Part shown: piece by piece, positions 63,324 through 64,000 of the stretch
Layout of the letters: every line of letters begins with the position of its first letter
Position numbering within the stretch: position 1 is the stretch's first letter
Origin: a virus
Taxonomy: Duplodnaviria > Heunggongvirae > Uroviricota > Caudoviricetes
Direction: 5' to 3' (one strand)
IMG/VR virus record: IMGVR_UViG_2721755710_000007
Span: 11,410 to 75,409 of that record
DNA: 64,000 bases
Translations under genes and position numbers: made by a program
Notes under the pieces: model-generated
Told to the model about the DNA's origin: nothing
Databases searched by the model: none
The model's input: only the letters and a program-made list of their open reading frames with translations

Positions 63324-64000
63324 TGGCACCCACAATTTATCACCGTATCGACGGTACCAAATACAGGAATGTCTGGGTTGTTGGTGATCTGCATGGTTGC
63401 TACACCAGACTGATGTCCGAACTCCATCGTGTGGATTTTGACCCGGCGCAGGATTTACTGATATCGGTCGGCGACCTTATCGATCGCGGTACTGAAAATG
63501 TCGAATGTCTGGAACTATTGCAGATGCCCTGGTTCAGGGCAGTGATGGGGAACCATGAGCGGCTGATGATTGATGCGTTAAGTCCAGATGGCAACGTGAA
63601 TAACTGGCTAATGAATGGCGGACAATGGTTCTTCATGCTGGACACTGATCAGGAAATATTAGCCTGGGCGCTGGTGGAGCTGGTAAAGCGTCTGCCCTAT
63701 ATCATTGAGTTGAACACGGGGCAAGAAACTATCGTTATAGCCCATGCCGACTATCCGGATAATGAATACCAATTCGGTAAGGAGGTGCCGCTTTTCAACG
63801 TTGTCTGGGCGCGCGAGCGTATCAGTGATTCGATGGATGATATTGGTGGCGAAATTTCGGGCGCAGATCGTTTTATCTGGGGAGCCCGCAGAATTCGGAA
63901 AAAATCGTACGCTAAGGTTTTCCGGGCATCCGTAAGGGCCGAAACTTCCCGTCTTCCAGTCTGCGGCTCTGCCGCCAGACGTAATCGCCGGTTAGGTTGA
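63305..64000 (+). CDS. ppp: Ser/Thr protein phosphatase (lambda PPase-like); C-terminal region atypical
   Basis: GDLHG, GDLIDRG, GNHE motifs; after FIWG the frame lacks the expected GHTP-like motif. Confidence 0.7.

What the first reader, a model, noticed from the sequence alone, without database searches (positions are those of the whole stretch)
63860..64000. Atypical C-terminus of the lambda-like phosphatase
After the conserved ...GADRFIWG the frame continues as ARRIRKK... whereas another frame 60 nt later encodes FSGHP, closer to the expected GHTP motif. The 3' end may carry indels, or the gene may be disrupted.
Basis: seen in the sequence. Interest (0 to 1): 0.2.

Follow-up and report, generated by a model that had tools for sequence, protein, structure and literature searches.

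The report
Transposon-truncated phage P1 phosphatase gene
The odd C-terminus arises because a tetracycline-resistance transposon (Tn1721) has cut off the last 39 codons of the phage P1 phosphatase gene ppp, so the reading frame runs on into transposon DNA; this is an ordinary insertional gene disruption on a multidrug-resistance plasmid.

Summary
ORF 63320-64000 is the P1 ppp gene (a lambda-type Ser/Thr phosphatase). Identity to intact ppp genes stops after base 63878. Bases 63879-63916 are, base for base, the published 38-bp terminal inverted repeat of Tn1721. Beyond them the minus strand encodes the C-terminus of the Tn3-family transposase, whose stop codon lies inside the repeat. Residues 1-186 are native, codon 187 is chimeric (F to W), and a 40-residue arginine-rich read-through tail replaces the native 39 residues (FGHTP...), including the Mn-ligand histidine equivalent to lambda His186. 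'FSGHP' (63918-63932) lies wholly in transposon DNA and is a chance resemblance. Two complete plasmids and at least 24 contigs carry the identical junction, followed by truncated tnpA, pecM, tet(A) and tetR, which is the Tn1721 tet module. On the far side, IS26 has removed the transposon's left end and 570 bp of backbone, including the ppp 3' end. The host element is a degraded P1-derived IncY plasmid retaining about 50% of P1. This is a known kind of event and of low interest. Minor points: RefSeq names the chimera as an intact protein, and ppp has been hit independently by related transposons.

The parts
63320..63878 (+). Native 5' part of P1-type ppp (codons 1-186 plus the first base of codon 187). 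It retains the GDLHG, GDLIDRG, GNHE and HADYP metallophosphoesterase motifs.
   Evidence: 100% identical to intact ppp of many P1-type plasmids up to 63878. 1G5B lambda PPase E 3.5e-76. PF00149. P1 annotation 'Ppp, serine/threonine protein phosphatase, by homology'. Codon bookkeeping.
63874..63878 (.). TATCT, the 5 bp of backbone abutting the transposon end. This is the presumed target site that would have been duplicated; the second copy is not recoverable.
   Evidence: Junction sequence. Tn1721 makes 5-bp direct repeats (PMC5736529). The reciprocal junction was not found.
63879..63916 (+). 38-bp terminal inverted repeat of Tn1721 (the tnpA-proximal type; by position IRRII), GGGGAGCCCGCAGAATTCGGAAAAAATCGTACGCTAAG.
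   Evidence: Identical to the Tn1721 repeat printed in PMC7864471. Single copy in the window, 0 expected by chance. Two identical copies in direct orientation in p02B17002_B, as described for IRRI/IRRII.
63912..64000 (-). 3' end of the truncated Tn3-family transposase gene tnpA (...[28 protein letters not shown]). Its stop codon (63912-63914) lies inside the repeat. The gene continues beyond the window end.
   Evidence: Translation. In sibling plasmids the same frame continues for about 584-606 codons, matching NF033527 Tn3 transposase positions 384-954 and PF01526. PGAP: 'TnAs1 family transposase, missing N-terminus'.
63878..64000 (+). Read-through tail of the chimeric ORF: chimeric codon 187 (TGG, W) plus 39 codons plus stop TGA (63998-64000). 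The 40 non-native residues include 10 Arg and 3 Lys. It is a by-product of translating the repeat and antisense tnpA.
   Evidence: No similarity to any ppp homologue after residue 186.
63918..63932 (+). 'FSGHP' in another frame: a chance resemblance to GHTP, lying entirely in transposon DNA.
   Evidence: Coordinates. It lies 3' of the repeat boundary, in sequence 100% identical to both tnpA 3' ends of Tn1721 in L004.
62697..63323 (+). pmgP homologue immediately upstream (context). ppp is the fourth gene of the C1-controlled pmgN-pmgO-pmgP-ppp-pmgQ cluster of P1.
   Evidence: ORF list. P1 annotation with operator Oppp / promoter PpmgN.

Best explanation
The ppp gene of a P1-derived IncY plasmid was interrupted after nucleotide 559 (codon 187) by the right end (IRRII) of the tetracycline-resistance transposon Tn1721, a Tn21-subgroup member of the Tn3 family. 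Shown: the homology break lies exactly at the outermost base of the 38-bp repeat. The repeat is identical to the published Tn1721 repeat. The antisense tnpA 3' end has its stop codon inside the repeat. In sibling replicons with the identical junction, the transposon interior follows: truncated tnpA, hydrolase gene, pecM, tet(A), tetR, a second identical repeat, then full tnpA. Inferred: the element arrived by standard Tn3-family replicative transposition, in which TnpA acts on the 38-bp ends, a cointegrate is resolved by TnpR, and a 5-bp duplication forms, here presumably TATCT. Later IS26 activity removed the transposon's left end together with 570 bp of backbone (the ppp 3' end and 455 nt of pmgQ) and remodelled the resistance island. 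The 'atypical C-terminus' is simply ribosomal read-through of the repeat and antisense tnpA until a fortuitous TGA. The product lacks the last 39 native residues, including the GHT histidine (lambda His186, a Mn2+ ligand) and the C-terminal part of the fold, so it is predicted to be catalytically dead. The biologically relevant effect is delivery of resistance genes; ppp is collateral damage.
For: Junction position. Repeat identity to the published Tn1721 repeat. tnpA end. Tn1721 architecture beyond the window in p22Q34-2 and p02B17002_B (the latter 100.000% identical to the window over its last 20,135 nt). Two identical repeats heading a perfect 1,786-bp direct repeat. All of this matches the published layout. 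IS26 boundary and 570-bp backbone deletion, shared by both plasmids. Same chimeric protein indexed in 45 collection blocks, 24 contigs read from independent assemblies. Classical transposition of the same transposon family into ppp is demonstrated in pWL164-2, with both repeats and a 5-bp duplication TATTG. Loss of the His186 equivalent: alignment; role of His186 and essentiality of its CthPnkp counterpart. Pfam Metallophos coverage shrinks from profile 2-190 to 2-163, and the NF008516 score falls from 272 to 226 bits.
Against: Only 122 bp of the transposon lie inside the window. Everything beyond is inferred from near-identical sibling replicons, not from the window's own molecule. The reciprocal (IRL) junction and hence the 5-bp target duplication for this insertion were not found anywhere, so direct transposition into ppp, though strongly implied by the precise end, is not formally proven. 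PGAP names the transposase 'TnAs1 family', so Tn1721 versus a very close Tn1722/TnAs1-type relative rests on the repeat sequence and the tet-module context. Loss of phosphatase activity is predicted, not measured.
Confidence: 0.95

Rival explanations
1. Small indels or sequencing errors shifted the frame near the 3' end of an otherwise complete ppp gene. The GHTP motif would then survive in another frame as FSGHP.
For: A GH-containing pentapeptide does appear in another frame at 63918-63932.
Against: There is no nucleotide similarity to ppp after 63878 in any frame. The 3' 119 nt of ppp are absent from the window's final stretch and from every fetched locus that carries this junction. The sequence after the break is 100% identical to Tn1721 ends.
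Confidence: 0.01
2. The junction is an assembly chimera, caused by collapse or misjoin at a repeated transposon end, and does not exist in a real molecule.
For: The Tn1721 end is highly repeated: it is present in more than 5,000 plasmid records and 1,987 of 5,426 E. coli genomes. This is the kind of sequence at which short-read assemblies break.
Against: The identical junction is present in two complete circular plasmids from different countries/submitters and in at least 24 contigs from separate assemblies, with varied downstream structure. The break is exactly at the transposon's terminal base, as biology predicts.
Confidence: 0.01
3. The ppp/repeat junction was not made by transposition into ppp in this backbone. 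It was imported ready-made by homologous or IS26-mediated recombination with another P1-type plasmid, or arose by one-ended transposition.
For: No target-site duplication or left end can be shown. The island is heavily remodelled by IS26, and its content differs between carriers.
Against: Wherever it first formed, a break precisely at the outer base of the repeat requires a transposase-made end. The backbone on the ppp side is uniform among carriers. This rival changes the history, not what the feature is.
Confidence: 0.1
4. The chimeric protein is a selected, functional variant, for example a phosphatase core with a new Arg-rich tail, rather than a dead by-product.
For: The ORF is complete, is kept identical on at least 24 contigs, and is named as an intact protein by PGAP.
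Against: The conservation is explained by recent common descent, since the flanking DNA is also about 100% identical. The tail is the antisense translation of conserved transposon sequence. The metal-ligand His and the last 39 residues of the fold are missing. 697 of 708 plasmid copies of ppp are near-full-length with the native end.
Confidence: 0.02

Closest known systems
Tn1721 (Tn1722 plus tet region; Tn21 subgroup of the Tn3 family), right end IRRII with truncated tnpA
   Same: The 38-bp terminal repeat is identical to the published sequence. The tnpA stop lies inside the repeat. In sibling replicons the layout is truncated tnpA, pecM, tet(A), tetR, identical second repeat, full tnpA, with a 1,786-bp perfect direct repeat, as described in PMC5736529 and PMC7319535.
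   Different: The element is incomplete. IRL, mcp and (in p02B17002_B) tnpR/res are replaced or cut by IS26 and other resistance modules. No target duplication is recoverable.
Phage P1 Ppp / bacteriophage lambda Ser/Thr phosphatase (PDB 1G5B)
   Same: Residues 1-186 are identical to intact P1-type Ppp and align to lambda PPase residues 3-183 with all N-terminal metallophosphoesterase motifs. The gene order pmgO-pmgP-ppp matches P1.
   Different: It lacks the C-terminal 39 residues, including the GHT motif (lambda His186), and carries a 40-residue unrelated tail.
ppp::Tn1721-family insertion in plasmid pWL164-2 (NZ_CP128644.1)
   Same: Same gene, same transposon family, and the same orientation (tnpA-proximal repeat next to the ppp 5' part) on a P1-type backbone carrying resistance genes.
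   Different: It is an independent event at ppp nt 201 rather than 559. That element keeps both repeats (IRL with 3 mismatches), a 5-bp duplication TATTG and both gene halves.
Tn1721-blaCTX-M-27 in P1-like phages SJ46 / P1-CTX
   Same: A Tn1721-type transposon delivers resistance genes into a P1-like phage-plasmid.
   Different: Those insertions lie between ref and mat, leave ppp intact, and the phage remains inducible and transducing. Here the site is ppp, and the backbone has lost about half of P1.

Membership tests
Lambda-type Ser/Thr protein phosphatase (metallophosphoesterase; lambda PPase / P1 Ppp) | Significant full-domain sequence similarity to lambda PPase | tested here: met
   1G5B E 3.5e-76, but the alignment ends at chain residue 187 of 221. 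PF00149 E 3.7e-14.
Lambda-type Ser/Thr protein phosphatase (metallophosphoesterase; lambda PPase / P1 Ppp) | N-terminal metal-binding and catalytic motifs GDxHG, GDxxDRG, GNHE, and the HAD histidine (lambda D20/H22, D49/R53, N75/H76, H139) | tested here: met
   GDLHG, GDLIDRG, GNHE and IAHADYP are all present and aligned to lambda (alignment; sequence).
Lambda-type Ser/Thr protein phosphatase (metallophosphoesterase; lambda PPase / P1 Ppp) | C-terminal GH(T) motif supplying the last Mn2+ ligand (lambda His186) | tested here: not met
   The native FGHT is replaced by WGAR; the position of His186 is Ala. His186 is in the lambda Mn complex, and its CthPnkp counterpart His376 is essential. The ORF is therefore a truncated pseudogene-like remnant of a family member, not an intact member.
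Lambda-type Ser/Thr protein phosphatase (metallophosphoesterase; lambda PPase / P1 Ppp) | NCBIfam equivalog score above the curated cut-off (NF008516 / NF007425) | tested here: inconclusive
   The chimera scores 226 bits and native P1-type Ppp 272 bits, both below the 326-bit cut-off. These models are tuned to the E. coli PrpA/PrpB orthologues, so they do not discriminate here.
Tn1721 (Tn21 subgroup, Tn3 family) | 38-bp terminal inverted repeat of the Tn1721 sequence at the exact boundary with target DNA | tested here: met
   63879-63916 is identical to the published Tn1721 repeat. The homology break is at its first base.
Tn1721 (Tn21 subgroup, Tn3 family) | Tn3-family DDE transposase gene reading towards the repeat and ending inside it | tested here: met
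   28 codons plus stop lie within the window. The same ORF in sibling loci matches NF033527 (E 3e-258, profile 384-954) and PF01526.
Tn1721 (Tn21 subgroup, Tn3 family) | tet region tetR(A)-tet(A)-pecM-truncated tnpA bounded by two identical, directly oriented repeats (IRRI, IRRII) | tested here: met
   Met in p02B17002_B (100% identical to the window over 20,135 nt) and in several contigs. It lies beyond the window end, so it is not visible in the window itself.
Tn1721 (Tn21 subgroup, Tn3 family) | Opposite end IRL (variant repeat) and 5-bp target-site duplication | tested here: inconclusive
   For this insertion no IRL-TATCT-ppp 3' junction exists in 5,426 E. coli genomes or 72,556 plasmids. 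The left end appears to have been lost to IS26. Both features are present for the independent ppp insertion in pWL164-2.
P1-like phage-plasmid (Punavirus, IncY) | P1 replication and immunity backbone (repA/IncY, c1, C4 RNA, P1 tRNAs, syntenic P1 genes) | tested here: met
   PLSDB types p22Q34-2 as IncY. repA, parAB, c1, phd/doc, lpa and pac are annotated. C4 RNA and the tRNAs were found. 44% of P1 aligns to the window.
P1-like phage-plasmid (Punavirus, IncY) | Complete set of virion and lysis genes (functional phage) | tested here: not met
   Only 50% of P1 is retained at >=80% identity in p02B17002_B. P1 12.3-22.6 kb and 23.4-42.9 kb are absent (portal, pro, lyz, holins, tail fibres, bplA, part of sit). 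Divergent replacements cannot be fully excluded.

The most novel reading that the evidence does not exclude
The pmgP-ppp interval may be an unrecognised preferred landing site for Tn1721/Tn21-family transposons in P1-type phage-plasmids. Three independent ends lie within about 580 bp: 22 bp upstream of ppp in pPSS-13_1, after nt 201 in pWL164-2, and after nt 559 here. Published surveys treat ppp as conserved backbone, outside the eight variable regions. If real, this would point to a local target preference or to selection for loss of the C1-controlled Ppp/PmgQ functions in plasmid-locked P1 derivatives.
Probability: 0.2. Interest if true: 0.3.

Novelty: already known. Interest (0 to 1): 0.08.

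Why it matters
It matters little for biology. It is a textbook insertional truncation of a non-essential-looking phage gene by a well-known resistance transposon, on a degraded P1-derived multidrug-resistance plasmid whose relatives are already in public databases. There are three practical points. (1) The chimeric ORF is propagated in RefSeq as an apparently intact 'metallophosphoesterase' (WP_225893433.1), which could mislead family alignments and motif analyses. (2) ppp is used as a PCR marker for P1-like phage-plasmids (PMC9603915), and primers in the last 119 nt would fail on this lineage. (3) The ppp::IRRII junction is a precise lineage marker for tracking this tet(A)-bearing IncY plasmid family.

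Tried and rejected
1. Frameshift/indel model: rejected by the DNA alignment.
2. FSGHP as a displaced GHTP: rejected, because it lies in transposon DNA.
3. Search for a second copy of the repeat or the ppp 3' end in the window or in junction-bearing loci: none found.
4. Search for the reciprocal junction. The first query was poorly designed: it placed tnpA sequence next to the repeat, so a true IRL junction could cover only 73%. It nevertheless surfaced pWL164-2. The redesigned IRL-TATCT-ppp 3' query on plasmids found no true reciprocal junction.
5. H71/H149 (pPSS-13_1) looked like a full-coverage hit but is two pieces: an independent Tn1721 end 22 bp upstream of an intact ppp.
6. The Lobocka et al. 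P1 genome paper (PMC523184) is not held; the P1 GenBank annotation was used instead.
7. Two literature look-ups failed on term syntax and were repeated.
8. Structure prediction and the large protein-database searches were judged unnecessary and not run.

Full report
**Observation**

The last ORF of the window (63305 or 63320 to 64000, + strand) ends ...[47 protein letters not shown] second ORF in another frame (63744-63935) ends ...RFSGHP*.

The protein is a lambda-type Ser/Thr phosphatase. phmmer against PDB gives 1G5B (lambda PPase) at E 3.5e-76, but the alignment stops at query residue 189 / chain residue 187 of 221. Pfam gives PF00149 Metallophos. The intact version of the gene is ppp of phages P1 and P7: 99.0-99.7% DNA identity to P1 records and 99.4% to P7. 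It is annotated 'Ppp, serine/threonine protein phosphatase, by homology' and lies between pmgP and pmgQ.

**Where the sequence departs from ppp**

A megablast of 63300-64000 against 72,556 plasmids found hundreds of P1-type plasmids matching at 100% only up to query base 579, which is window 63878. One record matched throughout. Alignment with an intact copy (pATCC10729_02, L002) shows ...CGTTTTATCT|TTGGTCACACTCC... (FIFGHTP) against ...CGTTTTATCT|GGGGAGCCCGCAG... in the window, with no similarity afterwards. The intact protein ends [45 protein letters not shown].

Codon bookkeeping:
- Residues 1-186 are native.
- Codon 187 (63878-63880) is chimeric: T from ppp plus GG from the insert, so native F becomes W.
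- The next G is coincidental.
- A 40-residue tail (10 Arg, 3 Lys) replaces the native 39 residues.

So 'GADRFIWG' is not entirely conserved sequence, and there is no indel. The gene simply ends at 63878.

**What replaces it**

Bases 63879-63916 read GGGGAGCCCGCAGAATTCGGAAAAAATCGTACGCTAAG. This 38-mer is unique in the window, with 0 matches in 100 shuffles. It is identical to the Tn1721 terminal inverted repeat printed in PMC7864471.

On the minus strand, 63998 down to 63915 encodes [28 protein letters not shown], followed by a stop at 63912-63914 inside the repeat. In sibling plasmids this frame continues for about 600 codons. It matches the NCBIfam Tn3-family transposase equivalog (NF033527, E 3e-258, profile positions 384-954 of 954) and PF01526. 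That makes it a transposase lacking its N-terminal third.

'FSGHP' (63918-63932) lies wholly in this transposon DNA, opposite the last tnpA codons. It is a chance resemblance, not a displaced GHTP.

**Beyond the window end**

Two complete plasmids carry the identical junction:
- p22Q34-2 (NZ_ON934557.1, IncY; 3 mismatches to the window in 20.7 kb).
- p02B17002_B (NZ_JBVWFT010000002.1, human isolate, Canada; 100.000% identical over the window's last 20,135 nt).

In p02B17002_B the order after ppp' is as follows:
1. repeat;
2. truncated tnpA;
3. cysteine hydrolase gene;
4. pecM-type DMT transporter;
5. tet(A);
6. tetR(A);
7. a second identical repeat in the same orientation;
8. full-length tnpA;
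9. IS26.

The two repeats head a perfect 1,786-bp direct repeat. This is the published layout of Tn1721: Tn1722 plus a tet region ending in a truncated tnpA, with IRRI and IRRII identical and co-oriented, IRL mutated, and 5-bp direct repeats (PMC5736529, PMC7319535). The repeat in the window is therefore IRRII of Tn1721. PGAP calls the transposase 'TnAs1 family'.

**The other side of the island**

In both plasmids the P1 backbone resumes next to an IS26, inside pmgQ, at the same base (L002 position 4150; P1 coordinate 81585). As a result 570 bp of backbone are missing (P1 81015-81584): the last 119 nt of ppp and the first 455 nt of pmgQ.

The ppp 3' end is absent from all fetched loci that carry the junction. 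No IRL-TATCT-ppp 3' reciprocal junction exists in 5,426 complete E. coli genomes or 72,556 plasmids. The expected 5-bp duplication (TATCT, 63874-63878) therefore cannot be verified. The inferred history is transposition into ppp, followed by IS26-mediated loss of the transposon's left end and adjacent backbone.

**Distribution**

- The exact 226-aa chimeric protein is in the 15-billion-protein collection on 29 contigs, named 'MULTISPECIES: metallophosphoesterase'.
- The gene-position index lists it in 45 blocks. The 24 contigs read all have the same P1 backbone upstream but varied islands downstream. Most keep the tet module. In some, IS26 cuts the truncated tnpA. In one (L017) the repeat is followed directly by full-length tnpA, as expected from recombination between the 1.8-kb direct repeats.
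- This rules out an assembly artefact and shows that the shared C-terminus reflects common descent, not conservation.
- Overall ppp is present in 708 plasmid records, 697 with at least 80% in one piece.
- A survey of P1-like phage-plasmids uses ppp as a conserved marker and does not list it among the eight variable regions (PMC9603915).
- Published Tn1721 insertions in P1-like phages lie between ref and mat.

**Consequence for the protein**

The retained part keeps GDLHG, GDLIDRG, GNHE and HADYP. The position aligned to lambda His186 is now Ala. His186 belongs to the lambda Mn2+ coordination complex, and its counterpart His376 in CthPnkp is essential (PMC3675462). Metallophos profile coverage drops from 2-190 to 2-163, and the NF008516 score falls from 272 to 226 bits. 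Loss of activity is a prediction and has not been measured.

**Context**

- In P1, ppp lies in the C1-controlled pmgN-pmgO-pmgP-ppp-pmgQ cluster (operator Oppp).
- The host replicon is a heavily remodelled P1 derivative. Only 50% of P1 (44% within the window) aligns at >=80% identity.
- The regions encoding portal, Pro, lysozyme, holins, DarA, tail fibres, gp16, BplA and part of Sit are missing. They are replaced by IS1-bounded cargo.
- The element is probably no longer a viable phage, so the ppp lesion is one of many.

**Related events**

- pWL164-2 has a complete Tn1721-family resistance transposon inserted after ppp nt 201. It has the tnpA-proximal repeat, an IRL with 3 mismatches, and a clean 5-bp duplication TATTG.
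- pPSS-13_1 has an IRRII end 22 bp upstream of an intact ppp.
- These show that the family does transpose classically into this locus. They also hint at a recurrent target, but I found them by searching specifically for repeat-ppp adjacency, so no enrichment can be claimed.

**Verdict**

The feature is the right-end junction of Tn1721 truncating P1 ppp, which is a known kind of event already present in public records. Interest is low.

Noticed in passing
window 63320-64000; L004 19455-20135; L001 20021-20701: RefSeq/PGAP annotates the chimeric ppp-transposon read-through ORF as an intact 'metallophosphoesterase' (WP_225893433.1, 'MULTISPECIES'), although it overlaps the tnpA pseudogene by 89 nt. 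It is a pseudogene-like remnant propagated as a normal protein.
   Followed up: partly
L007 3566-15038 (pWL164-2); L006 6044-6104 (pPSS-13_1): There are two further independent Tn1721-family ends in or next to ppp on other P1-type plasmids. One is a complete element after ppp nt 201 with a 5-bp duplication TATTG. The other is an IRRII end 22 bp upstream of the ppp start. This may indicate a recurrent target, but the search was biased towards ppp.
   Followed up: partly
window 1-64000 versus P1 AF234173.1: Only 44% of P1 aligns to the window (50% to the whole sibling plasmid). P1 12.3-22.6 kb and 23.4-42.9 kb are absent (portal, pro, lyz, holins, darA, cin, tail fibres S/R/U, gp16, bplA, part of sit). 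The element is probably a defective, plasmid-locked P1 derivative.
   Followed up: partly
window 2351-3118, 19760-20527, 23318-24085; segment 20528-23317: There are three IS1 copies. Two of them bracket a 2.8-kb non-P1 segment that, in the sibling plasmid, carries mobI(A/C)- and trhR-type genes. It lies directly beside a truncated sit-like lytic transglycosylase gene (about 24087-25559, minus strand).
   Followed up: no
window 3119-4113: An IS5/ISKpn26-family transposase fragment lies next to IS1. It is present in p22Q34-2 but absent from p02B17002_B, so the window comes from a third, closely related plasmid with IS-mediated differences.
   Followed up: partly
window 10142-19759: In the sibling plasmid this stretch is annotated as non-P1 cargo: IS3, a 1,165-aa autotransporter, a RelE/Phd toxin-antitoxin pair, a RepA4 fragment and a truncated DEAD/DEAH helicase.
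   Followed up: no
window 29229-29435, 32883-33057, 51609-51762, 53203-53278: Rfam and ARAGORN find the P1 C4 antisense RNA and its a1/b1 targets, a sok antitoxin RNA (hok/sok), and tRNA-Asn and tRNA-Thr. A CAT-anticodon tRNA is called Met by ARAGORN but is annotated tRNA-Ile2 in P1.
   Followed up: no
L017 10593-13559; L011, L012 and L018 downstream of 10681: The island behind the fixed ppp::IRRII junction varies between carriers. In L017 the tet module is absent and full-length tnpA abuts the repeat, consistent with recombination between the 1,786-bp direct repeats. In the other three, IS26 truncates the partial tnpA and brings other resistance genes.
   Followed up: partly
L005 19713-20975 (p02B17002_B, outside the window): The pmgS homologue just beyond the island is annotated as a pseudogene with an internal stop, a further sign of decay of P1 morphogenetic genes in this lineage.
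   Followed up: no
window ~47645-50933 (L004 3781-7068): The dmt region is annotated as a 183-nt DNA cytosine methyltransferase pseudogene fragment followed by a 1,012-aa Dam-family methyltransferase. This differs from the single bifunctional Dmt described for P1.
   Followed up: no
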